Source of the DNA: a virus
Reading direction: 5' to 3' (one strand)
Length of the DNA stretch: 64,000 nucleotides
Virus record (IMG/VR): IMGVR_UViG_3300050821_005690
Location: 38,450-102,449 of that record
Positions within the stretch are counted from its first letter, which is position 1. Each line of letters begins with the position of its first letter. The translations under genes were made by a program, and so were the position numbers. Shown here in pieces: positions 5,230 to 42,965 of this stretch. The notes below the pieces were generated by a model. It was given only the letters and a program-made list of their open reading frames with translations, was not told the origin of the DNA and ran no database searches.

Positions 5230-5430
5230 ATGCCGAGCATCCATGTGATCTACGTTCCCGCCGGAGAGCTTGTGGTGCCAAGTGAAACGCTAAAGCACAT
5301 GAAGGCCTCCTACGCCGTTCTGCGCCTGGAGGACGAGATGTCGGACGAGCACATCGCCGAGGTGGTTCAAGCTCTGGCAAAAATGGTGATTGAGCCGAAC
5401 ACGGCACAGAGAGGTGACGGGGATGCTTGA
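5230..5430 (+). CDS. hypothetical protein
   Basis: 66-aa ORF with typical codon usage. Confidence 0.55.
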   Translation: MPSIHVIYVPAGELVVPSETLKHMKASYAVLRLEDEMSDEHIAEVVQALAKMVIEPNTAQRGDGDA

Positions 5431-5725
5431 GCGTCGTGGGTTCCTGTTAGGCTTGGCAACGAGCGCGCTGGCGGCGCCAGCTATTGTGCGGGCCGCCAGC
5501 ATCATGCCGGTCAAGGCGCTCGTGGGCGATACGTGGACGCTGACAGGCTTCGATATGTACGGCGAGCCGATAACTGAAACAATTCGTTGGGTAGTGGATC
5601 ATTGGATGGTGGAGATGCCGGTTAAGACAATGCGCGAACTTGAGTTGCCGGGACTGACGGGCGTGCGATGGTCGTATTCTGGTTATGAGCCCCACTGGTC
5701 CAGACAAGCATTCTGTTCAGTTTAA
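5423..5725 (+). CDS. twin-arginine-leader protein with capsid-like peptide motifs
   Basis: MLERRGFLLGL...ALAAPAIVRAASIMPVK leader; GFDMYGEPITETI and RELELPGLTGV motifs. Confidence 0.7.
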   Translation: MLERRGFLLGLATSALAAPAIVRAASIMPVKALVGDTWTLTGFDMYGEPITETIRWVVDHWMVEMPVKTMRELELPGLTGVRWSYSGYEPHWSRQAFCSV

Positions 5726-5745
5726 CGGATTTGCAAATCCGTTAA
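5722..5745. terminator. perfect 24-bp palindrome between convergent gene blocks
   Basis: TTAACGGATTTG/CAAATCCGTTAA. Confidence 0.5.
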
Positions 5746-5987
5746 TTCATCAGGCCTCCAAGAGGAGCAGGCGGACGCTCTCAAGAAAGATGCCAGAAGG
5801 CCCGAAGCTCGGCGTTGGTCATAGTCCGAGCCAGTGGAACAGCGTGGCGACAAACCAGAATAAATCCATCGCGAACCACAGAAGCGCAAAGAGTGCGGCT
5901 GCCCGTACCTCGCGCGGTGTGATGGGCGCTCCCGAGAACACTCGGTAGAAAGCGTTCATCAGGCCTCCAAGATGAGCAAGCGGACGC
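5746..5987. repeat. 33-bp direct repeat (31/33 identical) at 5746-5778 and 5955-5987
   Basis: TTCATCAGGCCTCCAAGA(G/T)GAGCA(G/A)GCGGACGC. Confidence 0.85.
5819..5959 (-). CDS. small membrane protein
   Basis: MNAFYRV...AAALFALLWFAMDLFWFVATLFHWLGL; GGAGG RBS. Confidence 0.55.
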   Translation of the reverse strand: MNAFYRVFSGAPITPREVRAAALFALLWFAMDLFWFVATLFHWLGL

Positions 5988-6189
5988 GCGCGATCGTGTC
6001 GACGCTTGAACGCCCTACGAGTTCCTTGTGGACAATCTGGGCGAGACGCTCGCGCTCGGCGCGGGTGTCGGGCACGAAGACCATGCCTTCCTCGTAGTAG
6101 CGATAGAGCCAGCCGCCGGGGACGGCGAGGCGGTATGTGTTGTTGAGGCCGTCGACGCACTCCCATTTCGGCGGATTATTTTGCGGCAT
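5959..6189 (-). CDS. hypothetical protein
   Basis: TYRLAVPGGWLYR...MVFVP motif recalled from phage small proteins; AAGGAGG RBS. Confidence 0.7.
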   Translation of the reverse strand: MPQNNPPKWECVDGLNNTYRLAVPGGWLYRYYEEGMVFVPDTRAERERLAQIVHKELVGRSSVDTIARVRLLILEA

Positions 6190-6355
6190 TGTAAGCCTCC
6201 TTGAAACGCCTCTGCCATGCGGCGTACTCGATGCGCACGCGCATCCAGTCCTCGTACTCGGCTGCGGTTAGCTCGATGGTCTCGTCATATTGCCCTTCGT
6301 CGCGGGCGACGTTGAAGTCTGGCCAGCGCTCGTCGAGTTCAAAGAAGTATTTCAT
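6176..6355 (-). CDS. hypothetical protein
   Basis: AAAGGAG RBS, MKYFFELDERW. Confidence 0.6.
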   Translation of the reverse strand: MKYFFELDERWPDFNVARDEGQYDETIELTAAEYEDWMRVRIEYAAWQRRFKEAYNAAK

Positions 6356-6383
6356 CGTTTTCGCTCCTTTGGATAACACACAC

Positions 6384-6872
6384 TCACATGAGACCCGCAC
6401 CCAGTCTTTGTGCTCGGCTGAGCATCAAGCTGTCGGCGTCGTGGCGGGGGATCGAATCTAGATACTTGTCGGCTCGCTCATGGGCCGCCTTGGCCTCGGC
6501 GCGCAGTATGACCCAGCGTTGAAGCTCGGCAATGTTTTCGACTGGTACGAGGGCATCGAGACGGACCTTGCTGCGGCCTTCCTTGCTCTTGATCCAGCAA
6601 TGAACGATCGAAGGTGGGTGGCCGTGTCCATACGTCTCGGGCTCGCACAGGACGGTGACCGTAACCTCTTCGACCTGAGGTGTTCCGCAATAGTTGAGCA
6701 ATAGGGCACGCACGTCGATGCGTCGCTCTCCCTTGCTGAGTTCATCGATCTTGCGCTTAACGGCCGAGAGGCTTTGCTGGCCCTCGATGCTCAGATCGGG
6801 GCAGGCCCAGGTCTCGTCGTCATCTCGGAACTTAATGATTCGCCCGCGATAGTTGATTTCTAGTAGGTTCAT
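6384..6872 (-). CDS. hypothetical protein
   Basis: MNLLEINYRGR start after AGGAGAG. Confidence 0.65.
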   Translation of the reverse strand: MNLLEINYRGRIIKFRDDDETWACPDLSIEGQQSLSAVKRKIDELSKGERRIDVRALLLNYCGTPQVEEVTVTVLCEPETYGHGHPPSIVHCWIKSKEGRSKVRLDALVPVENIAELQRWVILRAEAKAAHERADKYLDSIPRHDADSLMLSRAQRLGAGLM

Positions 6873-7105
6873 GCGTTCTCTCCTATTCGATCTGGGGTGG
6901 CAGCCGGGCTGTCGTCGTTCAAAACCTGAATGGCGCTCCTGATTCCGCGGTTGGCCGCTTCGATCTCGGCGACCTTCCGCTCGATGGCGATTGAAAAGCC
7001 ACGTAACATCCCCAACTGCCGCTCGATGCGGCGCAGCCGGTATTGATGCGATGCGATTATTGTGACCCAGGCGAGAACGCAGGCGATCATTAGTGTTTCG
7101 ATCAT
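6869..7105 (-). CDS. membrane-anchored coiled-coil hypothetical protein
   Basis: hydrophobic N-terminus then heptad pattern; AAGGAG RBS. Confidence 0.6.
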   Translation of the reverse strand: MIETLMIACVLAWVTIIASHQYRLRRIERQLGMLRGFSIAIERKVAEIEAANRGIRSAIQVLNDDSPAATPDRIGENA

Positions 7106-7107
7106 GG

Positions 7108-7976: not shown

Positions 7977-8034
7977 CCGGTACTCCCTTCCCCTGATTGC
8001 CGTGGGAGCCCTCCGAAGAGGGCTCGGGCTGCAA

Positions 8035-14376: not shown

Positions 14377-14577
14377 GTGACCAAGGCTCGAAGGCGGAGC
14401 GCCAGCCCGGCGCGGCTTTGGTGGTACATACAGCACCGGCTAGGGCGCATTTTCCGGCGCGAGATGAACAAGGTGGCCGTCGACGCCATGATGCGCGGTT
14501 CGGGGGCCTACCGTATTGGGCCCGAGGTGCCAGACCTGATCGAGCACATTAGTTCGGAGCAGTTCCGTGACCTTTGA
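14377..14577 (+). CDS. hypothetical protein, weak portal-like motif
   Basis: GTGA-coupled; DAMMRGSGAYRI...IEHISSEQF. Confidence 0.5.
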   Translation: MTKARRRSASPARLWWYIQHRLGRIFRREMNKVAVDAMMRGSGAYRIGPEVPDLIEHISSEQFRDL

Positions 14578-14881
14578 GCAGGCGACGAAGACCGACATTG
14601 TGGCGTGGCTGCGGGGCTTTCGTAATACGGATTTCAGCGTTTATGACCTGTGGGCCGCTATTCGCAAAGCCGCCGACGAGATTGATCGGCTGCAGGCCGA
14701 CCTGAATCGGCAAGGCGAATACTCGGCGGCGGCTTATGCCGAGCGCGATCAATACATGGAAAGCAATGTTAAGCTAGTCGCCGAGATCGAGCGGCTACAG
14801 GCTCTCGGCGGGCCAAACAAGTGCTTGAATTGCGACGACGTGCTCGAAGGCTTCTGCCCCGAGTGCTCACAGAAGATGTGA
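14567..14881 (+). CDS. coiled-coil plus Zn-finger hypothetical protein
   Basis: KAADEIDRL...CLNC...CPEC. Confidence 0.65.
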   Translation: MTFEQATKTDIVAWLRGFRNTDFSVYDLWAAIRKAADEIDRLQADLNRQGEYSAAAYAERDQYMESNVKLVAEIERLQALGGPNKCLNCDDVLEGFCPECSQKM

Positions 14882-16399: not shown

Positions 16400-17019
16400 C
16401 CGACGACGCCCCCGTGGACCCACAGCCGTCTCGGCGTCATCTGTACGTCGCCTTCTCGGCCCGTAAGCAGGGCCAGTTTGTCTTTGGATGGTCGGTAACC
16501 ACCACCGACGACTGGGTCATACGTAGCGGCAAGGAAATCGAGGAGCTGTCATCCACGATCGAGAAAATCTTTGGCTATGATGAGAACTCGGTCGTCATCA
16601 TCAATTTCATGCGGATGGAGGAACCATTGACGGACGAACAGAAGCCGATGATCGTGACTCATGTGCCCCCGCCACCCATCAAGCCCCCGCCGTCTGCGGT
16701 CCCTGCGTTTGCTGGACCGCAGTTTGTGACACAGCCGCCCGCGCCGGACGCGACCGCCACCTCTTATGAGCCGCCGCCTGCCTACCCTTGGGACGGCCCC
16801 CCTGTGGTGCAGGATGATGTATCAGGGCCGATGGTTACATCGATCGAGCCGAAGCCGAAGGTCGACCTGCTCCGCCTGTGCGCTACCATTGTCGAGCTTC
16901 TCCACGACCTGTGTGCTGAGATGAGGTATTCGACGCCGTCGCACTCCTGGAGGGACATGCCTAAGATTCGGGACAAGATCGAACAGTTGCGCGACGAGTT
17001 GAGGGAGCTGACGAAATGA
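16396..17019 (+). CDS. hypothetical protein with Pro-rich linker
   Basis: coupled 207-aa ORF. Confidence 0.65.
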   Translation: MTDDAPVDPQPSRRHLYVAFSARKQGQFVFGWSVTTTDDWVIRSGKEIEELSSTIEKIFGYDENSVVIINFMRMEEPLTDEQKPMIVTHVPPPPIKPPPSAVPAFAGPQFVTQPPAPDATATSYEPPPAYPWDGPPVVQDDVSGPMVTSIEPKPKVDLLRLCATIVELLHDLCAEMRYSTPSHSWRDMPKIRDKIEQLRDELRELTK

Positions 17020-17309
17020 AGCTCTTTGAGGACAGCCAGGGCTTCATCTTTGCGTTCGGCTTCGACATGAACGCGCGCAAGCCGCACCACAGTATGATCT
17101 GCTGGTGCGATCCCGAAACGAAGGAGTGGGAGGCTACCTCCGCCAATCAAGCCGGGTGGCTCACGGTGCCGACCACGATCTTGGCGCCGGAGTTCGTGTT
17201 CGAGAGCCGGGACCGCGCGATCGTGGCTTATCAACCGGGGCTGTGCATCGAGCTGCGGCGCCAGGGGAAGCCGTTCGTGTTTACCCTGTTCACTATGCAC
17301 GCGAGGTGA
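17016..17309 (+). CDS. stand-alone fragment homologue of the tail nozzle protein
   Basis: collinear similarity to 39175-39435 of this window's nozzle gene (AFG..W.D..W....NQAG..T.PT..G.P.V). Confidence 0.7.
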   Translation: MKLFEDSQGFIFAFGFDMNARKPHHSMICWCDPETKEWEATSANQAGWLTVPTTILAPEFVFESRDRAIVAYQPGLCIELRRQGKPFVFTLFTMHAR

Positions 17310-17465: not shown

Positions 17466-17837
17466 ATGGCTGATATGAACAGACGCGCTTTCCTATGGCT
17501 CGGCTCGATCGGTGCGGCAGTTGTCACCATGGGGCGCATCGGGCGTGACGCGCCGCTAGTCCACCCGGAGCAAGAGGTCTTTTTCGACGTTGGCTGGAAT
17601 ACGTATCCCAAGGTCTTCGCCTCCGCTGGCGAGGTCGTGACCTGCGAGAGTGGGCATTCGATCTGCACCTTCGCCGAGACGGTGAACATTGGCCAGTACC
17701 AGTTGCCGCACCACCTCGGCGAATGGAGGCAGGAAGAGCCGAAGATCGGGACCTTTCCCATGCCGGTCTGCGCGAAGTGCGGTTCGAAGTTCGTGCTCGA
17801 TAACGGCCATTTCCATTTCCATGGAGGCTGGCGATGA
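17466..17837 (+). CDS. twin-arginine-leader protein with Cys/His domain
   Basis: MNRRAFLWLGSIGAAVV; CESGH..C...CAKC. Confidence 0.65.
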   Translation: MADMNRRAFLWLGSIGAAVVTMGRIGRDAPLVHPEQEVFFDVGWNTYPKVFASAGEVVTCESGHSICTFAETVNIGQYQLPHHLGEWRQEEPKIGTFPMPVCAKCGSKFVLDNGHFHFHGGWR

Positions 17838-19460: not shown

Positions 19461-21206
19461 GTGAAGTACCAGGAACTGCTCAAGCTCGGGAACCTGAACG
19501 AACTGTTCTTGGCCGCGACCCACGCGAAGCGGGCGAACTCCATGATCGATCGCGAGGACCTTGAGAACGATTTTTTGATGTTTCTGGAGGCTGCATGGCC
19601 GTCGATCGACTCGGCGCCGTTTCAATCGTGCTGGGCGATTGATGCGATGGCCCAGCACCTTGAGGCGGTCACGCTCGGTCATATCAAGCGGCTGCTGATC
19701 AACATTCCGCCCCGCTGCGCGAAGACGAACACGGCCTCGATCTGCTGGAACGCCTGGATATGGGCGCGCTCGCAGCAGAGCTTCGTCAGCGGCCCGCAGG
19801 TCAAGTTCCTAAGCGCCAGCTATAATTCAGCCTTGTCGTTGATGGCCTCCAACAAGACCCGACGTCTGATCATGAGCCCGTTCTATCAGGCGCTTTGGGG
19901 CGATCGATTCACGCTGCGGCTCGATCAGAACAGCAAGTCCCAGTTCGATAACACGGTCGGCGGCTCGCGCATCGCCACCTCGGTCCGTGGCTCGCTGCTC
20001 GGTCTGGGCGGCGATGTGATCTGCGTCGACGACCCACACAACACCGAGACCGAGAAGAAGATCGAGACCGATGCCGATCGGCGCGTTGTGGCTTCTTGGT
20101 ATCAAGAGCTTCATGGCACGCGCCTCAATAATCCGAAGCTCACGCCGCTCGTGGTGGTAATGCAGCGCCTGCACAAAGGCGATCTTTCTGGCATCATCCT
20201 CGACGGTTCCGAGCCATTTGTGCACGTCATGGTCCCGATGGAGTTCGACAGTCGGCGGCGGAGCGTCACTGTGATCCTCCCGCAACTCGATTACGAGGGG
20301 AAGGAACCCACCCCGTGGGCGGACCCCAGGACCGATGACGACGAGCTTATGTGGCCGGAGCGGTTCGGGCACCGTGAGTTGGAGCGCATGAAGCATCTGC
20401 TGGGGCCGTACATGGCGGCGGGGCGTTTACAGCAGAGTCCCATCGCCAAAGGCGGAGCAATCCTCAAGCGCGGCTGGTGGAAGCTGTGGGACATGGATGT
20501 AGCTCGCACCTATGGCCTGGAATGGGCCGAGGGTGGCCGGAAGGAGTTCCCGGAGTGCAGCTTCATCTGCGGGAGCCTCGACACCTCGTACGGGGAAAAG
20601 GACGAAAATAACTTCAACGCTCTGACGGTCTGGGGGGTGTGGGTCGATCACAATAAGAATCGCCGGGCGATGCTCATGTTCGCCTGGGCGAAGCGCCTGC
20701 CGCTGCACGGTCAAGTGCTCACGCCTCGGCCCAACGAGGCCGGGGTGAATTTCCGGGCCCGGCAGCAAAGGGAATGGGGACTGGTCGAGTGGGTCGCCGA
20801 CACCTGCCGCCGGTACAAGGTCCATCGCCTGCTGATCGAGGATAAGACCAGGGGGCACGACGTGGCGAACGAATTACGGCGCCTGTACGCCCGCGAGAAC
20901 TTCGGCATCGAGATGATCTCGGTAAACAAGATAGACAAGGTCTCCCGCACCCATTCGGTGGTTTCGCTTTTCGTCGATGACGTGGTATGGGCGCCGGAAA
21001 CGAAGTGGTCGGAAGAGGTGCTCGACCAATGCGAATACTTCCCGCGGCACGATCATGACGATCTGCACGACACGGTGACACAGTTCTTGAATTGGGCTAG
21101 AGAGCGCGGCATCTTATTGCGTGGCGACGAGATGAGCGCGGCTCTTGAGGATGAGGCGGCTTACAAGCCGAAGGATCATGGCGTCGCCGAGCATTACGGG
21201 GTTTGA
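19461..21206 (+). CDS. terL: terminase large subunit
   Basis: INIPPRCAKT Walker A-like, VICVDDPH Walker B, VMQRLH coupling motif, RNase H-like SLDTS...HDDLHD. Confidence 0.95.
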   Translation: MKYQELLKLGNLNELFLAATHAKRANSMIDREDLENDFLMFLEAAWPSIDSAPFQSCWAIDAMAQHLEAVTLGHIKRLLINIPPRCAKTNTASICWNAWIWARSQQSFVSGPQVKFLSASYNSALSLMASNKTRRLIMSPFYQALWGDRFTLRLDQNSKSQFDNTVGGSRIATSVRGSLLGLGGDVICVDDPHNTETEKKIETDADRRVVASWYQELHGTRLNNPKLTPLVVVMQRLHKGDLSGIILDGSEPFVHVMVPMEFDSRRRSVTVILPQLDYEGKEPTPWADPRTDDDELMWPERFGHRELERMKHLLGPYMAAGRLQQSPIAKGGAILKRGWWKLWDMDVARTYGLEWAEGGRKEFPECSFICGSLDTSYGEKDENNFNALTVWGVWVDHNKNRRAMLMFAWAKRLPLHGQVLTPRPNEAGVNFRARQQREWGLVEWVADTCRRYKVHRLLIEDKTRGHDVANELRRLYARENFGIEMISVNKIDKVSRTHSVVSLFVDDVVWAPETKWSEEVLDQCEYFPRHDHDDLHDTVTQFLNWARERGILLRGDEMSAALEDEAAYKPKDHGVAEHYGV

Positions 21207-21272: not shown

Positions 21273-21479
21273 ATGGCCCTAAGCCCTCGGCCGAAGCCGT
21301 GGCGGGTCCGGGTCCGGCGCGTCATAGAGACCTGGATCGAGGTGAGTGCGCACAGTGCGACCGAGGCCGAGGGGCTAGCGGCCAACTATCCGCAAGTGGT
21401 GTCCGTCTTCGTTGGGTCCACCATCCGGGCCGATCTAAAGGACGCTGAACCGAGGGACATAGGAGTCGAGGATGAGTGA
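21273..21479 (+). CDS. hypothetical protein
   Basis: IEVSAHSATEA small-domain pattern. Confidence 0.55.
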   Translation: MALSPRPKPWRVRVRRVIETWIEVSAHSATEAEGLAANYPQVVSVFVGSTIRADLKDAEPRDIGVEDE

Positions 21480-21750
21480 CGTTGGAGCCATGAACGGGTT
21501 GCCGCCCGCGGCGGCGGTTTCAGTGAATGCCGTAGCGATCGAATTAGTCGAGAGGCATCTTGCGGCGCTCAAGCGTGGCGAAACCAATACGGTTGCTATC
21601 ATCTCGGTTGACCATCAGGGCCAGACGGTCACCAATTGGGCGGGACCGCGACTCGGCGACGTCTATATCGGTTGTGCGACGATCCACCGAAAGCTCATGG
21701 ATGGGTTCATCGCCCCGCCGCTGCAATCGCGGATTTTGCGTCCGCGCTGA
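21472..21750 (+). CDS. hypothetical protein
   Basis: AGGAG RBS, 92 aa. Confidence 0.65.
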   Translation: MSDVGAMNGLPPAAAVSVNAVAIELVERHLAALKRGETNTVAIISVDHQGQTVTNWAGPRLGDVYIGCATIHRKLMDGFIAPPLQSRILRPR

Positions 21751-27440: not shown

Positions 27441-28940
27441 ATGGTGATGTCGGCCGGATCGAGGATCGGCCGCACGCGGGTGCCGACTACCGGCGCGCAG
27501 CCGGCGTTTGCGCAGAAAAATACGACCGGCACTTTCACTGGGTCGAGCACGACAGTCTTTGTCATGGCCGGTCTTGCCCTGACGATTACGCCGAAGGTGA
27601 CCGGCAACATCCTGGTGACATTTCAGGGGTTTCTAACTTCTACGGCCGTTACGATCAATGAAGGGACTATCCTTCAGATCGCATATGGCACCGGCAATCC
27701 GCCAGCAAACAATGCTGCTGCTATAGGCACCCTCGTCGGCGAGCCAACACAGTTCGGCTTTGGCGTGGCTCAGACAACGGCTGCCGACTTCTTTCAACCG
27801 ATCTCGCTCTCTTCCTTGATCCAGGGATTGACTCCTGGCGTAACTTACTGGATCGACATCCAGGTTAAAGCGGTCACCGGGATAAATGTTATTGTCACCA
27901 ACGACCCGGTTCTGACCGCGATAGAGCTTGGCGGTTCGCAGCCCGCGACTGCCCCTGTGCAGGTATCCGGAGGTCCCGGACCTGTGTTTGGCGGCCGCCT
28001 GACGTTGACCTCGGGCACGCCGGTCCTCAACGTCAATACGACGGCGCAGGGCACGGTCTTTTATACGCCGGCGGATGTTCCTGGCAGCGGCACGGTCGCA
28101 ATCTACAACGGGAGCAACTTTGCGAATTATCCGTTCACTGAGCAGAGTGTCGTGCTCGACAGCACGAACTGGCTGCTTGGTCAGGTCTATGACTGGTGGA
28201 TGTTCCTGGTCGGCACCACGCCCACGCTCGGCTACAATGCGGCGTGGACCACGCCCCTGGCGCCATCGGCGGCGCGGTCGGCGGCGCTGGCGCGCCTGAA
28301 CGGGGTTAGGACTAACGCCGCGCAGATCACGATACGAACGAGCAGCGGCACGACGTTTGTCGTGCCAGCGAACCAAGCGACTTACGTGGGGTCAGGCTAC
28401 GGCACTGCGAACGCCCAGACCGGCATGAACTTCAACCCGGCTGCGGCGCTTGGCGGCAACAACCTCTTCCTCGCTCTTTACAATGCGCAAAACAAGGTTC
28501 CGATACTGGCGATTTCCCGAGACAGCACCGCCAGTTGGACTTACGCGACCAATACTTGGCACGTTGCCAACTCGGGGGGCACTGGATCGGGGTTGAATAA
28601 CCGCATTTCCTGGCTGGATGGACTGGCGGATTGTTCCGTTTTGGCCACCTATTCTACGCAGGTAGTCGTGGCTGCGACGCTAAATTCAGCAGCTCTTGGC
28701 GTCACTTTTAACTCCACTTCGGCGACGCCGGCGCAAGCTGCGGAAGCCCGCAGCAATAATGCGGGCACGGCCATGCGGATACCCCCTATAGCTTATGGTG
28801 TCACTCCACCGATCCTTGGGCTTAGCTTTGCTCAAGCGATGGAGATTGCACCTGACGCCGCTACTGTTACTTTTGAGAGCACCGACGGCATCGGCGCTGC
28901 CGGGCAACTTCAGCGGCTAACATTGCAATTGAGTATGTGA
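27441..28940 (+). CDS. tail/head fibre protein
   Basis: GGRLTLTSGTPV...YTP..G....YNG; LYNAQN...DSTASWTY motifs; Thr/Gly/Ala-rich. Confidence 0.7.
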   Translation: MVMSAGSRIGRTRVPTTGAQPAFAQKNTTGTFTGSSTTVFVMAGLALTITPKVTGNILVTFQGFLTSTAVTINEGTILQIAYGTGNPPANNAAAIGTLVGEPTQFGFGVAQTTAADFFQPISLSSLIQGLTPGVTYWIDIQVKAVTGINVIVTNDPVLTAIELGGSQPATAPVQVSGGPGPVFGGRLTLTSGTPVLNVNTTAQGTVFYTPADVPGSGTVAIYNGSNFANYPFTEQSVVLDSTNWLLGQVYDWWMFLVGTTPTLGYNAAWTTPLAPSAARSAALARLNGVRTNAAQITIRTSSGTTFVVPANQATYVGSGYGTANAQTGMNFNPAAALGGNNLFLALYNAQNKVPILAISRDSTASWTYATNTWHVANSGGTGSGLNNRISWLDGLADCSVLATYSTQVVVAATLNSAALGVTFNSTSATPAQAAEARSNNAGTAMRIPPIAYGVTPPILGLSFAQAMEIAPDAATVTFESTDGIGAAGQLQRLTLQLSM

Positions 28941-34745: not shown

Positions 34746-35330
34746 ATGAATACTCCAACTGGCCAATCCGGCGGCACGAGACCGGGGCAAGGCAAAACGT
34801 CACAGACGGGAACACCGCAGGTGCCGATGGCGGCCCGGCCGACAGAGCATGTCTCGACCGAGAATCTTCGGGCCGAAGACAAGCGCGGAACTGAGCACGT
34901 TCCTCCGCGCGCGCGCACGAGACTGCGCAAGGGCCTTGTGCAGCGGGATGAGTTCTTCGTCCCGATCGAGGAAATCCCGGACGGCCTGACCTATGAGTGG
35001 AAGCGGTTCAGCGTGAATGGCCAGGAAGACCCGTACTACCTCGCCCAGATGCGCGAGCAGGGGTTCGAGCCGGTTCCGCCCTCCCGCCACCCGAGCTGGA
35101 TCCCGCCGGGCTACAACGTCCCGCACATCGTCAAGGGCGGCATGATCCTGATGGACCGGCCGGTCGAGTTCACCAACGAGGCGCGCGCCGAGGCGCACGA
35201 TGCCGCCAACAAGCAGATCAGGGAAGCCGAGCAGCGTTTGGGTAAAACCCCTGTAGGCGAAATGATCCGCGAGGCTCCGAAGGTAATCAAGGAAATCGGC
35301 CGCATGGTGCCGATGGCAATCGAGGAATGA
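34746..35330 (+). CDS. conserved head-module protein
   Basis: IPDGLTYEWKR.SV.G...GFEPVP..RHP...GMILM.RP. Confidence 0.75.
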   Translation: MNTPTGQSGGTRPGQGKTSQTGTPQVPMAARPTEHVSTENLRAEDKRGTEHVPPRARTRLRKGLVQRDEFFVPIEEIPDGLTYEWKRFSVNGQEDPYYLAQMREQGFEPVPPSRHPSWIPPGYNVPHIVKGGMILMDRPVEFTNEARAEAHDAANKQIREAEQRLGKTPVGEMIREAPKVIKEIGRMVPMAIEE

Positions 35331-35836
35331 TCTCCCGCCGCTTCTTTCTCACGGGTGCTCTGGCGGCGCCAGTCGTGGTTGCCGCCAGCAACCTCGTGCC
35401 GCTCCGGGGCATCAAGTTCGATCCGATCATGCGTGTTCAATCATGGCCGATCGGGGAGAGCGCTTTCGGCGCATATTGGTCGCATGAAGGACCGCTGTCG
35501 AAGATCGGCGCCGTCGAAGAGACTATGCGGGAGATGTTCGGCGCCGCGTATCACCAGAAGATCGATTTTCCTATGCCCGGGGGGCCGATGTCCATTTTGG
35601 GTGTGCGGCCGACATTCGAGGAATGCGCGGAGCATCACCGGATGGCTAATAGTGGGTACGGGCCGAACGATCCACCCCCCAGGCGTTTTGCTTACAGAGG
35701 CGGCGTCGTCCGTCCTGATTCTGCTTATCCTCTCGAAGAGCAGAAGCGGGACATCGATCGCTACAAGGCGTATCACACCAGATCGACCAGGGCGCTTCGC
35801 AAACAGCTTGCCGAAATCTGCCATTGGGGCGCCTGA
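35327..35836 (+). CDS. twin-arginine-leader hypothetical protein
   Basis: MISRRFFLTGALAAPVVVAASNLVPLR leader. Confidence 0.7.
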   Translation: MISRRFFLTGALAAPVVVAASNLVPLRGIKFDPIMRVQSWPIGESAFGAYWSHEGPLSKIGAVEETMREMFGAAYHQKIDFPMPGGPMSILGVRPTFEECAEHHRMANSGYGPNDPPPRRFAYRGGVVRPDSAYPLEEQKRDIDRYKAYHTRSTRALRKQLAEICHWGA

Positions 35837-35839
35837 CAA

Positions 35840-35864
35840 GTGATATAAAGGCCTCCGGGGAATC
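35840..35864 (+). promoter_or_regulatory. candidate late promoter motif GTGATAT-N5-CCTCCGGGGA
   Basis: same spacing and sequence at 47918-47942. Confidence 0.5.
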
Positions 35865-35891
35865 GGATGCGGAGCGGGGGCTTAGCGGAGG

Positions 35892-36596
35892 ATGTCGTAC
35901 GACTACAACGGCTTCGTTCAGTCGCTTGCGGGCATGCTCGTCATCCCCGCGACTAACACCGACTTCCTCACCAACCTTCCGAACGTCATCGACGACGCCG
36001 AGCAGCGCATCTACCGCGAGCTTGATCTTCTAGCGACCATCGTTCGCCAGACCGGCGCGTTTACCATGAACAGCCGCAACTTCATCCTGCCGAGCGGGGC
36101 GGGGCGGTTCGTGGTGACTGAGTCCATGAGCGTCATCGATCTTAGCGGCGCCCGCCGCGCCTTGATTCCGGCCTCGCGCGAGTACATCGACTTCGTCTAC
36201 GGATCGGACACGCCGAACACCACGCCATCCTACCCCGAATACTACGGGATGCTCACCGACCAGACGGTCCTTGTCGGACCGCCGCCGGACTCGGCCTACA
36301 CAGTTGAGGTGACCGGGACCATCCGGCCAACGCCGCTCTCGCCCACCAACACGACCACGTATCTTACGAACTACCTGCCGGATCTGTTTTTGGCCGAGGC
36401 TATGATCTTCGGCTACGGCTACATGAAAGACTTCGGGGCAATTGCGGACGATCCGCAGGGGTCCGCTAGCTGGACGAAGCACTACCAAGACTTGTGGCAG
36501 TCGGCCAACACCGAGGAGCAGCGCAAGCGCTACGCCTCGATGGTCTGGAACAGCAAGCAGCCGTCACCGATCGCAACGCCGCCGCGAGCGCAATAG
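35892..36596 (+). CDS. head-tail adaptor protein
   Basis: IDDAEQRIYRELDL...VGPPPDSAY.VE...NTTTYL..YLPDL. Confidence 0.75.
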   Translation: MSYDYNGFVQSLAGMLVIPATNTDFLTNLPNVIDDAEQRIYRELDLLATIVRQTGAFTMNSRNFILPSGAGRFVVTESMSVIDLSGARRALIPASREYIDFVYGSDTPNTTPSYPEYYGMLTDQTVLVGPPPDSAYTVEVTGTIRPTPLSPTNTTTYLTNYLPDLFLAEAMIFGYGYMKDFGAIADDPQGSASWTKHYQDLWQSANTEEQRKRYASMVWNSKQPSPIATPPRAQ

Positions 36597-37929: not shown

Positions 37930-40188
37930 ATGGCCTTCGGCTCAGTCACATTGCAGCCCGGCGTCAATGTCGAAAAGACGCCCACGACTCTGCGCGCGAG
38001 CTATGCCGTCTCCAGCCTCGTTCGCTTCCGCGATTCTCTGATCCAGAAGTTAGGCGGCTGGCTCCGCTTTTATCCGTTCTCGGTCTCCGGGGTTCCGCGC
38101 GAGCTGCATTCGTGGCAGGACCTGAACAACAACAAGTATCTGGCGATCGGCACCACGACGCAGCTTGCTAAGCTCAGGGGCGGCCAGCTTGCCGACATTT
38201 CGCCGGAAACTCTGACTTCAGACATACCGCCGAACATCTCGACCACGATCAACAGCCCGACCGTCGCCATCGTTGATCCGAATGCCAGCGGCATCAGCGT
38301 CAATGACAGCGTGTTCTTCAATGTCCCGGTGTCGATCGGCGGCCTGATCCTGTTCGGGCTCTACCCGGTCACCTTGGTGACGGGCGCTACCTCGTATCAG
38401 ATCACCGCGTCGAAGAACGCCACCGCCACCTGCACCAACCCGACCGTCACGAATGGCACGACGGCGGCGGGCAATCCAACGCTGAATTTCGCGGCCACTC
38501 CGACATGGTGGCTGCCGTTCATGGTGGTCGCCGACATCACGACACCGGCGGCCATTCCGACGGGGACCTATCTCACGGCGGCGGGCGGCACGACGGCGAC
38601 CATGGACGTCAATGCGACCGCGCCCGGCGTTGGCAATGGCGACAGCATCGTCGTTGCCAGCATCCCGGTGTTCCAAACCACAATCGGCTCCAGCGCTGTA
38701 CTCGTAAAGTTCATTGCTCACGGCCTGAGCGTAGGAAGCACGTTCGTTCTGCAAATCCCGGTCACACTCGGCGGCATCACGCTGGCCGCCGGGCTTTACA
38801 CCGTCACCGCAATCATCGACGCCAATACCTTCCAGATTGCCGCGATGGCGCAGGCCACGAGCACGGTCACCGTGGCCATGAACAACGGCAATGTGGAGCT
38901 TGTTTATTACATCTCCATTGGCCCTCCACCCGCTGGCGTTGGCTTTGGTCTCGGCCCCTTCGGCACTGGCGGTTTTGGTCTAGGAACTGGGGGCGGGGTG
39001 CTGACCGGGACAGACATCGCCGCCACTGATTGGACTCTCGACAATTGGGGCGAAATTCTCATCGCCTGTCCGAAGAACGGGGGGATTTTCTACTGGGACC
39101 CGACATCCGGCTTCGCCAATGCGCAGATCATTCCGGGTGCCCCGCCTTTCAATACCGGCATATTCGTCTCGACCTCGGCGCAAATCCTCATCGCCTTTGG
39201 CTCGTCGATCAGCCAAGGCGTCGGCGTTCAGCAACAATTGCTGCTCGTGCAGTGGAGCGATGCGGGTAATTTCTTCCAGTGGACACCGAGCGCCACCAAT
39301 CAGGCGGGCAACTTCACTATCCCGACCGGCTCGGCGCTGATTGCTGGCTTGGCTACTCCCAATCAGAATTTGCTGTGGACCGATCTCGACCTGTGGGCGA
39401 TGAATTATCTCGGGCCGCCATTGGTCTACGGCTTCAACAAGATAGGTGCTGGCCTCGGGGCGGTGAGCTTGCATTCAATGCAGCAATTGCGTGGGTCGAT
39501 ATTCTGGATGAATGCGACCAACTTTTGCGCCTACACGGCCTCGGGCCCGAGCGTTATCCCCTGCCCGGTCTGGGATGCGGTGTTTCAAAATATCAACACC
39601 GCATTTTTGCAGAACGTGCGGGCAATGCCGAACACGTCCTACAACGAGGTGGGGTGGTTCTATCCGAGCGCGGCCAGCGTGTCGGGTGAGAACGACTCCT
39701 ACGTCAAGTTCAATATCACCGACCCGGGTGCGCCGTGGGATTACGGGCCGATGCAGCGCTCGGCCTGGATCGATCAGGGCATCCTCGGCCCTCCGATCGG
39801 AGCCACTTCCACCGGGATCATCTACCAGCACGAGACCAGCCCGGACGCCGACGGCTCGCCGCTGATGCCGAGCTTCACGACCGGCTTCTTCTACCTCGAA
39901 GAGGGCGAGCAATTTGTCACCGTGGATCAGGTTATCCCTGATTTCAAATGGACGACGTTCCCTGCCGGGGGAACATCTGCCCAGATTCAGCTTAGCTTCA
40001 ATGTAGTCGACTATCCTGGTGACCCGCCGAGGGTTTATGGTCCATATACGGTGACTTCGACAACGAAGTTCATTCCGACCCGGTTCCGGGGGCGTCTGAT
40101 GAGCGTCACGGGTAAGTCCAGCGACATCGGCAGCTTCTGGAGGCTAGGGAGTATAAAATACAGGTATGCACCGGCGGGACGGCGATGA
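37930..40188 (+). CDS. tail nozzle / DNA stabilisation protein (P22 gp10-like)
   Basis: QKLGGW; WTLDNWGE.LIA; QWSD; EVGWFYPS; RSAWID; WRLG..KY....AGRR. Confidence 0.8.
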   Translation: MAFGSVTLQPGVNVEKTPTTLRASYAVSSLVRFRDSLIQKLGGWLRFYPFSVSGVPRELHSWQDLNNNKYLAIGTTTQLAKLRGGQLADISPETLTSDIPPNISTTINSPTVAIVDPNASGISVNDSVFFNVPVSIGGLILFGLYPVTLVTGATSYQITASKNATATCTNPTVTNGTTAAGNPTLNFAATPTWWLPFMVVADITTPAAIPTGTYLTAAGGTTATMDVNATAPGVGNGDSIVVASIPVFQTTIGSSAVLVKFIAHGLSVGSTFVLQIPVTLGGITLAAGLYTVTAIIDANTFQIAAMAQATSTVTVAMNNGNVELVYYISIGPPPAGVGFGLGPFGTGGFGLGTGGGVLTGTDIAATDWTLDNWGEILIACPKNGGIFYWDPTSGFANAQIIPGAPPFNTGIFVSTSAQILIAFGSSISQGVGVQQQLLLVQWSDAGNFFQWTPSATNQAGNFTIPTGSALIAGLATPNQNLLWTDLDLWAMNYLGPPLVYGFNKIGAGLGAVSLHSMQQLRGSIFWMNATNFCAYTASGPSVIPCPVWDAVFQNINTAFLQNVRAMPNTSYNEVGWFYPSAASVSGENDSYVKFNITDPGAPWDYGPMQRSAWIDQGILGPPIGATSTGIIYQHETSPDADGSPLMPSFTTGFFYLEEGEQFVTVDQVIPDFKWTTFPAGGTSAQIQLSFNVVDYPGDPPRVYGPYTVTSTTKFIPTRFRGRLMSVTGKSSDIGSFWRLGSIKYRYAPAGRR

Positions 40189-40403: not shown

Positions 40404-40561
40404 GCCCGGAGCAGGACTCGTCTTTTGCGTCCGCCGCGGCGCAAACTCCGCCTGCCTCGGGTGGCGATGTGACCAACATCAACTCGACCTTGCAGACCAT
40501 CGTGCAAAATCTTTCTCAGTTGCTTGCCGCCATCAATGCCCTGATCCAGGACGCCACCTGA
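40376..40561 (+). CDS. small virion protein
   Basis: GTG start after AGGGGG; DVTNINSTLQTIVQNLSQL helix. Confidence 0.55.
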   Translation: MADTTTPFVSPEQDSSFASAAAQTPPASGGDVTNINSTLQTIVQNLSQLLAAINALIQDAT

Positions 40562-41220
40562 TGGCCCTCACCGATGTCAATTCAACGCTGAAGAATATCG
40601 CGGTGGCCCTGTCGAAGATCATCGTCGCAACCAAGAAGCTGGGAACGACTCTCGCCACTACGATTGCCGGGATCAGGTCTTCCATCGCCACCATCCAGGC
40701 GACCACCGGCCTGATCTACCTCGGCACCGTCAGTGTTTCCGCTGGCGCCATCACTGACACAACGATCGTCGCCGCCAACAACGCAAAATATCGGTCGTTC
40801 CAGTTCGTGTTTAAGAACATTCAGGATTCCGTGGGGAATAGTGGTCTGAGGTGGCGATGGCACTCGGGCGGGTCATTTCAGACGACCAGCTATAACTCTG
40901 TGTCGACTGGCTCGGTCTCGACCGGCCCCAGCCCATTTACGAGTGTGGACGGAACTTTCATCCGCCTTGGCGTGACGGAGTTAAGCACGAACGCCGACAT
41001 CGGGTCTTCTGGCGTCCTGATTGCGTCTAATCTTGCCAGCACAACGGCGTACAAGCCGGTGACCGGAACATCGTTTAGCTCCGATGGTGGCGTTTACACC
41101 ACCTACAGCATCGGCGGATATTGGCACGGTGGCCTTGGGACAATCGACGGATTCCAAATCGTCACCGGGGGTGGCTCTACGCTTGTTTCCGGCAGCGTCG
41201 ATATTTACGGAATCCTGTGA
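40561..41220 (+). CDS. tail needle/fibre-like structural protein
   Basis: N-terminal helix, beta-rich body ending SGSVDIYGI. Confidence 0.65.
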   Translation: MALTDVNSTLKNIAVALSKIIVATKKLGTTLATTIAGIRSSIATIQATTGLIYLGTVSVSAGAITDTTIVAANNAKYRSFQFVFKNIQDSVGNSGLRWRWHSGGSFQTTSYNSVSTGSVSTGPSPFTSVDGTFIRLGVTELSTNADIGSSGVLIASNLASTTAYKPVTGTSFSSDGGVYTTYSIGGYWHGGLGTIDGFQIVTGGGSTLVSGSVDIYGIL

Positions 41221-41277
41221 GCCATGCCATGATAGAAGGGGTCTTGCGAATCTGCGCTCCTACCGGAGGTAAGGGCA

Positions 41278-42516
41278 ATGCCGCTTGAACACTCGTCCTC
41301 GGATGCGGCTCTCCATCGCAACATGCACACCCTGATGGGGGAGATCGGCAAAAGCCCGCACGTTCAGTCGCGGAAGCAGGCGATTGCAATTGCACTCGAA
41401 ACACAACGCCGGGGCGGGCGCGACACCGGCGGGGTAGTTGGCGACGACGAGGACCAGCCGCAGACCGGGAAGGGCAACGTGATGCTCTATCAGCGTTCCC
41501 AGGCCGGGACGATGAGGCAGATAGATCGCGATCGTGCGCAAGGGCGTGCCGATGGCGGCGTTGCACCACCAAGCGGCAACCCTTTCGCCGTCCTGGCGGG
41601 GCTCGACGCCATGGACGCGACGGGTATAGCGCCGTCCTATGCTGCCGGTGGCGGGGCCCCGGCCGACCCGGTGCAATCCGTTATCTCCGCCTTGCAGCAA
41701 GGGTCGGGCAACAGCGCGAGTCCGATGGCTTCGGGCTACCCCGGCGCGGGCATGGGGGTGAACAACACGCTGCAGCCGTCGAGCCCGATGCTGACGGCCA
41801 TGGCCAATCCGACCAGCGTGGCGAGTGGGGTTGCGCCGTCGCCGACTAATCCGGCTGCCATGGGCGTGGCAACGCAGTCTTTGCCAACTTTGGCGATGAT
41901 GCAGAAGAGAGACGGCGGCGCTGCCAAGCTCGCAATTGGCGGCTTCGATATTGCAAAGGGGCAAACGCCCGGTGTGCCCTGGTTTGAGCGCAGCGAGGCG
42001 CGGCAACTCCACACCGGCCCGGTCCTGTCGCACGTTCCTGGTCGCAGCGACAATCACCAGATCAAGGTCCCCTCGGGATCCTACGTCCTTCCGGCGCAGC
42101 ATGTCGCTTCGATGGGGCACGGTAATACGCTTGCGGGCATGTCGCTTGCGCACTCGATGTTCGGCGGCTACGTGCCTGGAGGAGGCGGGATACCTCACGG
42201 GCATCTGCCTCGCCCGCCGCGACCGGGTTTTGCCGCGGGCGGAGTGAGCGAGGGCGGCGCGCGCGAGGGGCACAATGGCTTTGAGGCGGTCCCGGTCGAC
42301 GTCAGCGGCGGCGAGTACATCATCCCGCCTTGGGCTATCATCCGCCGGTACGGCAGCCTGAAGAACGGCCACAAGATCCTCGACCGCTGGATCATGGATA
42401 CGCGGAAGGAAGAGATCAAAACCCAGAAGAAGCTTCCGCCGCCGGCAACCCGGTGGATCGGCGGCGGCGTTTGGGCGCCCTCTATTGTGCCAGACATCGA
42501 GGTTTTTGTAGCATGA
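41278..42516 (+). CDS. internal virion protein with GG motifs and GRSD...GEY domain
   Basis: KQAIAIAL N-terminus; VPGRSD...VPSGSYVLPA...GNTLAG; VPVDVSGGEYIIPP. Confidence 0.75.
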   Translation: MPLEHSSSDAALHRNMHTLMGEIGKSPHVQSRKQAIAIALETQRRGGRDTGGVVGDDEDQPQTGKGNVMLYQRSQAGTMRQIDRDRAQGRADGGVAPPSGNPFAVLAGLDAMDATGIAPSYAAGGGAPADPVQSVISALQQGSGNSASPMASGYPGAGMGVNNTLQPSSPMLTAMANPTSVASGVAPSPTNPAAMGVATQSLPTLAMMQKRDGGAAKLAIGGFDIAKGQTPGVPWFERSEARQLHTGPVLSHVPGRSDNHQIKVPSGSYVLPAQHVASMGHGNTLAGMSLAHSMFGGYVPGGGGIPHGHLPRPPRPGFAAGGVSEGGAREGHNGFEAVPVDVSGGEYIIPPWAIIRRYGSLKNGHKILDRWIMDTRKEEIKTQKKLPPPATRWIGGGVWAPSIVPDIEVFVA

Positions 42517-42965
42517 ACAGACGTCAGATTTTTGCCGTTCTAGCGGCCCTGCCGATCGTGGGGAAAATGATCCCCGCAGTCTCGGCTTCAGCACAGGAGC
42601 AGGTGGCCACTGACCATCTTGCCGCTGATATCGCCCGCAAGCTGGATACTTTGGCGGCGGTGTATCGGCCGTCTTCGCTTGCGGCTTATCGCGATCTGCT
42701 TCTGCCGGGATTGCGGGGGGCACTGCGCTATCCTGTCGAGGCCGACATCCAGATCGACTTTCTTACGGATACGCTTCTGGTGATGGCCGTCTACCCGCAA
42801 TACCCGCGAGCAGAGGATCGTTTGGTTATAGGCGTCATCACCCGGGAAAACCTTTCCAATCACCAGTGGTCGAAGTTTCAGCCGCTGCTTTCTCGAATGC
42901 GCGAGGTATTGTTCGCGCCAGACAGCGCTCCGGTAACACGCATCACCATGGACGAAATCACATGA
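42513..42965 (+). CDS. twin-arginine-like leader protein with fused major-capsid-like termini (mini-MCP)
   Basis: MNRRQIFAVLAALP; LAAYRDLLLPGLRG; EADIQIDFLTDTLLV. Confidence 0.65.
   Translation: MNRRQIFAVLAALPIVGKMIPAVSASAQEQVATDHLAADIARKLDTLAAVYRPSSLAAYRDLLLPGLRGALRYPVEADIQIDFLTDTLLVMAVYPQYPRAEDRLVIGVITRENLSNHQWSKFQPLLSRMREVLFAPDSAPVTRITMDEIT

What the first reader, a model, noticed from the sequence alone, without database searches (positions are those of the whole stretch)
5423..42965. Candidate decoy system: miniature fragments of the phage's own structural proteins
Seen: 17016-17309 aligns with an internal part of the nozzle gene in this window. Seen: 5423-5725 and 42513-42965 share R(D/E)LxLPGLxG and both begin with twin-arginine-like leaders. 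Recalled: that motif matches the N-terminus of this phage group's major capsid protein. Weak: 14377-14577 resembles a portal motif. Established: bacterial immune receptors (Avs/STAND NTPases, CapRel) sense portal, terminase or capsid proteins. Inference: these small, divergent, assembly-incompetent fragments could titrate such sensors, poison assembly of competing phages, or display epitopes at the membrane. I do not know this as a described gene set.
Basis: partly seen in the sequence, partly recalled or inferred. Interest (0 to 1): 0.88.

Follow-up and report, generated by a model that had tools for sequence, protein, structure and literature searches.

The report
Miniature copies of phage structural proteins
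This ~100-kb short-tailed phage carries small, conserved genes that are cut-down copies of parts of its own capsid and tail-nozzle proteins; one belongs to a large family that Pfam and PHROGs do not describe, but nothing found here shows that they are immune decoys.

Summary

- **17016-17309 (97 aa):** a true homologue of nozzle residues 417-506 (profile-profile E 4e-6). It folds as two beta-propeller blades and best matches a solved podophage nozzle (Z 10.9).
- **42513-42965 (150 aa):** a 'mini-MCP'. It has a twin-arginine-like leader followed by the capsid protein's N-arm, C-terminal hairpin and strand/helix 83-108. The real MCP lies outside the window, at genome 2140-3066.
- **5423-5725:** a similar leader joined to a miniature of the head-module proteins encoded after the MCP. 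Its MCP-like motif is weak.
- **14377-14577:** the portal claim fails.

The mini-MCP domain defines a family of at least 114 clusters, almost all 71-260 aa, with no Pfam or PHROG model. About a quarter of them carry the leader. Both mini families are under purifying selection (dN/dS 0.1-0.3), lie inside late structural operons, and occur sporadically among close relatives.

A scan of 108 small ORFs found no further fragments, so this is two or three independent gene families, not one coordinated system.

The decoy idea is untested, and two facts weaken it: the leaders, and the loss of the A-domain that known capsid sensors bind. My best guess (0.4) is that these are accessory virion or morphogenesis proteins that reuse a borrowed contact surface. 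The scan holds no similar note from other DNA.

The parts
17016..17309 (+). Mini-nozzle gene (97 aa): a stand-alone two-blade beta-propeller module, paralogous to nozzle residues 417-506
   Evidence: Family of 9 or more. hhalign against the nozzle family E 4.1e-6. AF2 pLDDT 92 with 8 strands. Best PDB match is the Pa223 tail chain, Z 10.9. dN/dS 0.12 for the pair L124-L125. GC3 0.86, a GAGGGAG Shine-Dalgarno sequence, and an ATGA overlap with the upstream gene.
37930..40188 (+). Tail nozzle gene (752 aa), parent of the mini-nozzle. The homologous segment is at 39178-39447.
   Evidence: phrog_3287 E 1e-59. PDB 8zkk 'nozzle gp16' E 4.5e-4 and 8zkm E 3.3e-4. 270 related loci. hhalign.
42513..42965 (+). 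Mini-MCP gene (150 aa). Leader 42513-42593. A helix found only in this member, about 42594-42665. N-arm-like segment 42672-42725. Hairpin like MCP 267-291 at 42726-42800. Strand plus helix like MCP 83-115 at 42819-42914.
   Evidence: phmmer and HMM against all MCPs give E 2e-11 to 2e-7. hhalign E 6.7e-6 and 6e-5. The family has 114 clusters. ATGA overlaps at both ends. AF2 pLDDT 70: helix, 3-4 strands, helix.
5423..5725 (+). Leader-bearing 100-aa ORF. Leader 5423-5497. GFDMYGEPITE motif 5546-5578. WVVDHW 5588-5605. RELELPGLTG 5633-5662.
   Evidence: The mature part is collinear with L013_20108 (217 aa), the orthologue of the head-module protein at genome 5093-5980, and with the 427-aa protein at genome 3105-4388. 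Match to the MCP N-arm E 0.007 in a 5-sequence test. The leader is shared with P0011-P0021, whose mature parts differ.
35327..35836 (+). Third twin-arginine-like leader ORF (169 aa), between a head-module gene and the adaptor. The cargo domain is unknown.
   Evidence: Leader similar to that of 5423-5725. Homologues in G002, L042, G003 and G008. TIGR01409 scores 12.8 bits against a cut-off of 16.7.
17466..17837 (+). Fourth twin-arginine-like leader ORF (123 aa), next to the mini-nozzle. The cargo domain is unknown.
   Evidence: Homologues of the mature part in L008 and L051.
14377..14577 (+). Claimed portal-like fragment. Not supported and probably not a gene.
   Evidence: Best E against the portal 0.37. 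No homologue in relatives. Not selected by my codon-usage gene caller.
43961..47755 (+). Internal virion (ejection-type) protein with a cell-wall hydrolase domain. It marks the ejection-protein cluster that holds the mini-MCP gene in every genome examined.
   Evidence: PF07486 E 2e-16. Synteny in L042, G003, G008 and G009.

Best explanation
SHOWN. The phage encodes at least two independent families of subdomain-sized paralogues of its own structural proteins.
- Both families are conserved and under purifying selection.
- The mini-nozzle is two blades of the nozzle beta-propeller.
- The mini-MCP is a ~90-residue domain built from three well-conserved stretches of the capsid protein: the N-arm, the C-terminal hairpin, and the strand plus helix at 83-108. 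The segments are joined in permuted order and the rest of the protein is missing.
- About a quarter of mini-MCP family members carry a stereotyped MNRR/hydrophobic leader.
- A third ORF joins a related leader to a miniature of the head-module proteins encoded after the MCP.

INFERRED, and my commitment. These are late-expressed accessory virion or morphogenesis proteins. Each keeps one contact surface of its parent and uses it to dock onto whatever normally touches that surface.
- The mini-MCP would present the N-arm/P-domain face, the capsid's inner and inter-capsomer face, to the internal (ejection) proteins among whose genes it always lies. It would act either as a packaged accessory or as their handler.
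- The mini-nozzle would add or cap propeller blades by beta-strand complementation near the portal/tail junction.
- The leader would be a membrane-targeting or removable N-terminal peptide. P22 ejection protein gp7 has such a peptide, removed before assembly.
For: Homology and fold.

Selection: dN/dS 0.10-0.30 where it could be computed, and intact ORFs at 36-79% identity.

Family size: 114 clusters, of which 113 are 71-260 aa.

Late-operon position with translational coupling: ATGA overlaps.

Gene neighbourhood:
- The mini-MCP lies in the post-nozzle internal-protein cluster in G000, L042, G003 and G009, whatever its leader status.
- The mini-nozzle abuts the portal gene in L124, L125, G004 and G008.

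The segments retained coincide with invariant MCP columns.

Precedents:
- A host protease removes the 20 N-terminal residues of P22 gp7 before virion assembly (PMC4992974).
- In phage A1002, nozzle propeller blades are completed in trans by a second protein (PMC13730344).
Against: - Distribution is sporadic. No mini-MCP or mini-nozzle was detected in the complete relatives G002, G006, G007 and G010. They are therefore dispensable, a pattern more typical of conflict or accessory genes than of assembly parts.
- No proteomic or structural evidence places them in virions.
- The leaders look like export signals, which would take the protein away from assembly. Orthologues at one locus differ in having a leader: G004 lacks it and G008 has it.
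- The assignment of the segments to HK97 N-arm and P-domain elements rests on my knowledge of the fold. The MCP was not modelled here, and the mini-MCP model gave no HK97 match.
Confidence: 0.4

Rival explanations
1. Exported or membrane-anchored mimics used in conflict between phages. The leader sends the mini-domain to the periplasm or inner membrane. There it binds parts of incoming virions of kin phages, such as ejection proteins that normally dock on the capsid's inner face or nozzle subunits, and so blocks superinfection or spares progeny from cell debris.
For: - There are four RR/hydrophobic leader ORFs in this genome and several in every relative.
- 26 of 114 mini-MCP clusters carry the leader, with AxA-like ends.
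- A G008 orthologue of the mini-nozzle has gained a leader.
- Sporadic distribution fits accessory conflict genes.
Against: - At least 39% of the family starts directly with the domain and so should be cytoplasmic.
- The genes sit in late structural operons, not early or lysogenic ones.
- Curated Tat-signal models score below threshold.
- Capsid protein is not known to enter the periplasm (my knowledge).
Confidence: 0.2
2. One reading: immune decoys or inhibitors. The fragments occupy host sensors that recognise nozzle or capsid protein without activating them.
For: - Sensors for both parents exist. Avs13 binds the tail nozzle, Avs7/8/10 bind the MCP, and CapRel and Lit detect the MCP through short motifs (PMC13581612).
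- The genes are small, fast-evolving and sporadically distributed, as anti-defence genes are.
- The retained MCP segments are well-conserved stretches, the kind a pattern receptor would target.
- The mini-nozzle has no leader in 9 of 10 members.
Against: - Avs7/8/10 bind the A-domain interface and Avs13 envelops the whole globular fold (PMC13581612). The mini-MCP lacks the A-domain, and the mini-nozzle is only two blades of the propeller.
- The leaders on the mini-MCP and on 5423-5725 point away from the cytoplasm.
- Co-expression with a large excess of full-length protein makes titration unlikely (inference).
- No link to a defence system could be tested.
Confidence: 0.1
3. Dominant-negative assembly poisons aimed at co-infecting relatives, or regulators of the phage's own assembly. 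The fragments cap MCP or nozzle interfaces.
For: - The contact-forming segments are retained while the parts needed for oligomerisation are lost.
- Divergence from the phage's own parent (about 21% identity for the mini-nozzle) could spare self.
Against: - The MCP segments concerned are nearly invariant across the clade, so a poison would also hit self.
- The leaders argue against a cytoplasmic assembly role.
- There is no experimental handle here.
Confidence: 0.1
4. Non-functional debris left by rearrangement of the structural module. The MCP block has moved in this genome.
For: The MCP block is displaced relative to G008 and G009. The mini-MCP looks like an MCP with its core deleted.
Against: - dN/dS is 0.1-0.3.
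- ORFs are intact across 36-79% identity.
- There are 114 clusters with full-length domain matches.
- The segment order is permuted, not a simple deletion.
- The mini-MCP also occurs in G009, where the MCP block is in place.
Confidence: 0.02

Closest known systems
Major capsid protein of this podophage lineage (annotated MCPs of Pelagibacter phage HTVC023P/HTVC027P, Roseobacter phage CRP-901/902 and relatives)
   Same: The mini-MCP shares three MCP segments: N-arm 3-20, residues 83-115, and residues 267-291. Profile E-values run from 1e-11 to 1e-5.
   Different: - It is about 90 residues instead of 308.
- Residues 21-82 and 116-266 are absent. By my reading of the fold, these hold the E-loop tip and the A-domain.
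- The segment order is permuted.
- It often carries an N-terminal leader.
- It cannot be a shell-forming subunit.
Podophage tail nozzle (T7 gp12 type; solved examples Pa223 9nwi, VP1 8zkk, SU10 7z47)
   Same: The mini-nozzle has the sequence and fold of two consecutive propeller blades.
   Different: It has no platform, fibre-dock or tip domain and not the rest of the propeller. It is absent from many relatives that have the same nozzle.
Split nozzle of Pseudomonas phage A1002 (PMC13730344)
   Same: A separate protein contributes two partial propeller blades to a nozzle by strand complementation. This shows that such small blade modules can act in trans.
   Different: There the nozzle-base protein lacks those strands and needs the partner. 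Here the nozzle keeps its own copy of the blades, and the small gene is dispensable among relatives.
P22 ejection protein gp7 (PMC4992974)
   Same: It is a small internal virion protein encoded among ejection genes, made with an N-terminal peptide that is removed before assembly.
   Different: No sequence similarity was tested or seen. gp7 has no capsid-protein-like domain. Processing of the present leaders is unknown.
Phage anti-defence proteins that bind immune components (sponges, inhibitors)
   Same: They are small, fast-evolving, sporadically distributed phage genes.
   Different: I found no described case built from a fragment of the phage's own structural protein (literature search). 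No defence link is shown here.

Membership tests
HK97-fold major capsid protein (this lineage) | Full-length alignment to the ~308-aa MCP, including the central region 116-266 | tested here: not met
   Only MCP 3-20, 83-115 and 267-291 align. 113 of 114 family representatives are 71-260 aa.
HK97-fold major capsid protein (this lineage) | Significant sequence homology to MCP profiles | tested here: met
   HMM E 2e-11 to 7e-11. The A8 HMM hits 92 MCPs at E <= 1e-3.
HK97-fold major capsid protein (this lineage) | Structural match of the model to solved HK97-fold chains | tested here: inconclusive
   Foldseek and VIA-align gave only generic alpha/beta matches, best Z 6.4. The model pLDDT is 70.
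Podophage tail nozzle (T7 gp12-like) | Beta-propeller blades homologous to the nozzle propeller | tested here: met
   hhalign E 4.1e-6. 9nwi_Y Z 10.9, which is 2.5 above generic propellers.
Podophage tail nozzle (T7 gp12-like) | Platform, complete propeller, fibre-dock and tip domains in one chain | tested here: not met
   The protein is 97 aa with 8 strands, which is two blades only.
Twin-arginine (Tat) signal peptide | Score above the curated cut-off of TIGR01409 or PF10518 | tested here: inconclusive
   The best score in the window is 12.8 bits against a cut-off of 16.7, for 35327-35836. There was no hit for 5423 or 42513. These models are short and miss many true signals. RR, an h-region and AxA-like ends are visible.
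Tat/Sec-exported protein | Demonstrated export or cleavage | not testable with these tools
   No signal-peptide predictor or experiment was available.
Anti-defence decoy or inhibitor of structural-protein sensors | Presents the surface bound by the sensor (A-domain interface for Avs7/8/10; whole globular fold for Avs13) | tested here: not met
   The mini-MCP has no counterpart of MCP 116-266. The mini-nozzle is two blades. Sensor footprints come from PMC13581612. Short-motif sensors of the CapRel or Lit type are not excluded.
Anti-defence decoy or inhibitor of structural-protein sensors | Relieves a defence system or binds its sensor | not testable with these tools
   The host and its defence systems are unknown.
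Portal-derived fragment (14377-14577) | Significant similarity to the portal protein | tested here: not met
   E 0.37 and no homologues.

The most novel reading that the evidence does not exclude
The mini-MCP family, and the leader-bearing mini-nozzle, are molecular mimics deployed in conflict. Each presents a well-conserved surface of a structural protein in order to intercept whatever recognises it. The target could be a short-motif host sensor of capsid protein. It could equally be the ejection proteins or nozzle of superinfecting kin phages, in the periplasm, when a twin-arginine leader is attached. That would be a mimicry-based counter-defence or exclusion principle built from a virus's own virion parts.
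Probability: 0.2. Interest if true: 0.85.

Novelty: new variant of a known kind. Interest (0 to 1): 0.62.

Why it matters
Capsid and nozzle proteins are core, slowly changing phage parts. They are also now known to be targets of bacterial pattern receptors.

A family of at least 114 clusters of ~90-residue proteins made only from well-conserved capsid-protein segments has not been described in Pfam or PHROGs. It is missing from the 50,697 GenBank phage records at BLAST sensitivity. Many members carry an export-type leader.

Whatever these proteins do, they point to an unrecognised way in which phages reuse pieces of their own virion proteins. The function could be an accessory virion component, a handler for ejection proteins, an exclusion factor or an immune mimic. 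They also give structural biologists a natural minimal form of what I read as the capsid P-domain, and a natural two-blade propeller module.

Tried and rejected
- **Portal fragment at 14377-14577.** No similarity and no homologues.
- **DNA-level repeat as the source of the shared motif.** Rejected. Identity sits at codon positions 1 and 2, with only 4-6 of 10 matches at position 3.
- **Further fragments.** I scanned 108 small ORFs as profiles against all large ORFs of the relatives. Apart from the three genes reported here, only hits with E of about 6e-5 to 0.05, each to one or two ORFs, turned up. These include weak TerL-like (21472-21750) and giant-protein-like matches, which I treat as noise. 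A single-sequence scan of 34 leader-bearing ORFs from 11 genomes found only the mini-MCPs.
- **Complex prediction, mini-MCP (28-150) with MCP.** The tool returned no answer (score 0.00, controls not run). This counts neither way.
- **Fold searches of the mini-MCP model.** No informative match. The ESM Atlas gave nothing usable.
- **Pfam, PHROGs and NCBIfam scans of leader-bearing ORFs.** No domain found.
- **Megablast of 12 kb of the window against GenBank phages.** No match.
- **tblastn of mini-MCP and mini-nozzle against GenBank phages.** No match.
- **dN/dS.** Synonymous sites are saturated in most pairs, so only 7 of 13 ratios could be computed.


Full report
**Context**

The window is bases 38450-102449 of a 102,449-bp IMG/VR phage record that CheckV rates as complete. 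It is a high-GC (about 61%) podophage. Its landmark genes are:
- TerL at 19461-21206 and an SU10-type portal at 22698-25472.
- The nozzle at 37930-40188. It matches phrog_3287 at E 1e-59 and the PDB entries 8zkk 'nozzle gp16' (E 4.5e-4) and 8zkm (E 3.3e-4).
- An ejection-type protein with a cell-wall hydrolase domain at 43961-47755.
- A giant ORF of at least 5,362 codons that runs off the contig end.

Distant cultured relatives are Pelagibacter, Roseobacter, Caulobacter and cyanobacterial podophages. Closer relatives are uncultured contigs of about 100 kb (G002, G003, G006-G010). I fetched these whole.

**Observation 1: the nozzle fragment**

The 97-aa product of 17016-17309 gives only a short BLASTP match to the nozzle (8/17 identities, E 8e-4). 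The evidence from families is much stronger.
- It belongs to a family with intact ~97-aa members at 44-79% identity.
- An HMM of that family, searched against about 23,000 six-frame ORFs of related loci, returns the family itself and then 44 nozzle proteins. All hits fall in the same region, and the best has E 1e-5.
- Profile against profile gives E 4.1e-6 over 80 columns, mini 8-95 against nozzle 417-506.
- AlphaFold2 models it at pLDDT 92 as eight strands, which is two four-stranded blades.
- The best solved match is a chain of the Pseudomonas phage Pa223 tail (9nwi_Y: Z 10.9, rmsd 2.3, 92 of 97 residues). That is 2.5 Z units above generic propellers. The SU10, GP4 and VP1 tail chains also appear.
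- The closest family pair has dN/dS 0.12 (dS 1.5). Other computable pairs give 0.10-0.30.

The gene is an old, maintained partial paralogue of the nozzle.

**Observation 2: the shared motif and the capsid protein**

Both 5423-5725 and 42513-42965 start with RR followed by a hydrophobic stretch, and both contain R(D/E)LxLPGLxG. No full-length capsid gene lies in the window. It is at genome 2140-3066.
- It is 58% identical to a GenBank 'major capsid protein' and 33-37% identical to capsid proteins of cultured relatives.

The 150-aa protein (P0002) matches the MCP in three places:
- residues 54-71 match MCP 3-20;
- residues 72-96 match MCP 267-291;
- residues 103-134 match MCP 83-115.

The support is as follows:
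- Single-sequence phmmer gives E 2e-8 to 2e-7 against every MCP in 11 genomes.
- The divergent G003 homologue reproduces the same three segments.
- The family HMM gives E 2e-11 to 7e-11.
- hhalign gives E 6.7e-6 and 6e-5.

The segment order (N-arm, C-terminal hairpin, then 83-115) is permuted relative to the MCP. The gene is therefore not a simple internal deletion.

By my knowledge of the HK97 fold, these segments are the N-arm, the P-domain hairpin, and the return strand of the E-loop plus the start of the spine helix. I did not model the MCP, so that assignment is an inference. The AF2 model of P0002 (pLDDT 70) is helix, three to four strands, helix. It has no informative structural neighbour.

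**A large undescribed family**

I built a profile of eight mini-MCP domains and ran it against 1.84 billion cluster representatives.
- It found 114 proteins at E <= 1e-3 and 19 at E <= 1e-10.
- All but one are 71-260 aa (median 113), and the domain covers nearly the whole profile.
- The single long hit is a 304-aa MCP of this same lineage.
- The members show the MCP-like motifs more clearly than P0002 does: xRDLLLPGL, ExDIxVDFxxDxLLVKGY and LGFAITRxxIxxxxYKxxFxP.
- 26 of the 114 carry a stereotyped MNRR..L..LAALP..G leader.
- 44 start directly with the domain.
- The rest have other extensions or tandem repeats.
- None of 61 members matches any Pfam-A or PHROG model.
- A consensus-like member has no tblastn match in 50,697 GenBank phage records.
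- The reverse test also holds. An HMM of 61 members hits 92 MCPs in my loci at E <= 1e-3.

**The third ORF, 5423-5725**

Its homologues share the leader at 67-83% identity but have unrelated mature parts. The leader therefore behaves as a module attached to varied cargo.

The mature part of this ORF is collinear with a 217-aa head-module protein of a distant relative (L013_20108). The shared motifs are G-x-D-x-(Y/W)-G-x-P-x-T-E, WVVD-x-W and SY..Y.P.W. The relations are:
- L013_20108 is orthologous to the protein at genome 5093-5980 (E 8e-15).
- It is paralogous to the 427-aa protein encoded right after the MCP.
- These matches are weak but replicated: E 5e-4 in a database of 922 sequences, and 0.002-0.011 in 137 sequences.
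- The RELELPGLTG resemblance to the MCP N-arm is 7/10, with E 0.007 in a five-sequence test.
- That motif is absent from both homologues whose mature parts can be aligned with it (P0011 and the L005 ORF), so I leave it unresolved.

**Observation 4 fails**

The ORF at 14377-14577 shows no similarity to the portal (E 0.37). It has no homologue anywhere in the relatives, and my codon-usage gene caller did not select it.

**Is it a 'system'?**

I tested all 108 small ORFs (40-230 aa) of the genome as family profiles against every large ORF of the relatives.
- Only the mini-nozzle and mini-MCP gave strong, consistent matches to structural proteins.
- 5423-5725 gave a weak one.
- Everything else was a match to only one or two ORFs at E of about 6e-5 to 0.05, which I treat as noise.

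The three genes are far apart and occur independently among relatives:
- mini-MCP is in G000, G003/G001, L042 and G009;
- mini-nozzle is in G000, G004/G005, G008, L124, L125 and L128;
- neither was detected in the complete genomes G002, G006, G007 and G010.

I read this as independent accessory families that share an origin mode, not as one coordinated system.

**Anatomy that bears on mechanism**

- **Late operons.** All lie in late structural operons with Shine-Dalgarno sequences and four-base ATGA overlaps with their neighbours.
- **Mini-MCP neighbourhood.** The mini-MCP gene lies in the internal/ejection-protein cluster downstream of the nozzle in all four genomes where its context is visible. 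Its exact slot and leader status differ between them.
- **Mini-nozzle neighbourhood.** The mini-nozzle gene abuts the portal gene in four of the six distinct contexts examined.
- **Leader gain at one locus.** G004 has a leaderless 97-aa form. G008 has a 155-aa form with an MNVSRRNLLLGATS leader.
- **Leaders are common.** The genome has four RR/hydrophobic-leader ORFs (5423, 17466, 35327, 42513), and each relative has several. Curated Tat models score below threshold.

**Comparison with what is known**

- A 2026 study shows that Avs13 binds the tail nozzle and that Avs7/8/10 bind the A-domain interface of HK97-fold MCPs. CapRel and Lit read short MCP motifs (PMC13581612).
  - Sensors for both parents therefore exist.
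  - However, the mini-MCP lacks the A-domain and often carries an export-type leader.
  - The mini-nozzle is only two blades of a fold that Avs13 envelops whole.
- Phage A1002 shows that nozzle propeller blades can be supplied in trans by a second protein (PMC13730344).
- P22 gp7 shows that an ejection protein can be made with an N-terminal peptide removed before assembly (PMC4992974).
- My searches found no described case of a capsid-derived mini-protein family (Pfam and PHROGs).

**Verdict**

The sequence observations are largely right, and they extend to a sizeable, undescribed protein family. The functional reading as a decoy system is not supported by anything I could test, and part of it is disfavoured.

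I rank the explanations as follows:
- accessory virion or morphogenesis proteins that reuse a parental contact surface: 0.4;
- exported mimics for exclusion between phages: 0.2;
- immune decoys: 0.1;
- assembly poisons: 0.1;
- debris: less than 0.05.

The complex prediction for mini-MCP with MCP returned no answer and is not used as evidence.

Noticed in passing
genome 1489-8408 (outside the window; locus L122) versus window 34827-36596: The head block (215-aa protein, MCP, 427-aa protein and about 8 more genes) sits at the start of the contig. In relatives G008 and G009 it lies between the 167-aa head gene and the adaptor. In this genome that slot holds only the leader ORF 35327-35836. The block has therefore moved, or the linear contig is permuted with a rearrangement.
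   Followed up: partly
window 5423-5497 and 35327-35410; proteins P0011-P0021: A leader of the form RRGFLLGL..ALAAPAIVRAASIMPVK is conserved at 67-83% identity across proteins whose mature parts are unrelated. A related leader heads 35327-35836 and its homologues (..AAPVVVAASNLVPLRGIK). This is far more sequence conservation than ordinary signal peptides show, which suggests a specific recognition or processing motif.
   Followed up: partly
window 27441-28940 and genome 7139-7738 (L122): A 199-aa head-block protein shares a 127-residue domain with the 499-aa structural-module protein (33% identity, E 6e-11). This is another partial paralogy between a small and a large late protein.
   Followed up: no
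window 14567-14881 and genome 21163-21351 (minus strand, L123): Two small ORFs (104 and 62 aa) are paralogues (46% identity over 50 residues, E 1e-6). Their function is unknown.
   Followed up: no
window 47911-64000: A single open frame of at least 5,362 codons runs off the contig end. The first 1,200 kb-scale relatives keep homologous stretches. It is probably a giant injected multidomain protein. My gene caller's minus-strand calls inside it are spurious.
   Followed up: no
L218:1363-1830 (minus strand; G008): The orthologue of the mini-nozzle has a twin-arginine-like leader and a C-terminal extension (155 aa). It sits at the same locus, next to the portal gene, as the leaderless form in G004.
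   Followed up: yes
L210:1117-1746 and L215:1450-1740 (G009): G009 has leaderless mini-MCPs. One is a 209-aa protein with two tandem mini-MCP domains and the other is a 96-aa single-domain protein. Both lie between the hydrolase-type ejection protein and the giant ORF.
   Followed up: yes
L237:14701-17613 (minus strand; G008) and L027:17842-18276 (minus strand; G002): A 970-aa protein has a twin-arginine-like leader and BNR/Asp-box (sialidase-type propeller) repeats. A 144-aa protein has an RR leader ending in a lipobox-like LGGC. Relatives of this clade encode several apparently exported proteins.
   Followed up: no
window 21472-21750: The 92-aa ORF after TerL corresponds to the C-terminal part of 146-159-aa ORFs in relatives (E about 1e-6). 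Its weak similarity to TerL 265-293 (E 0.006 in a 137-protein database) is within chance.
   Followed up: partly
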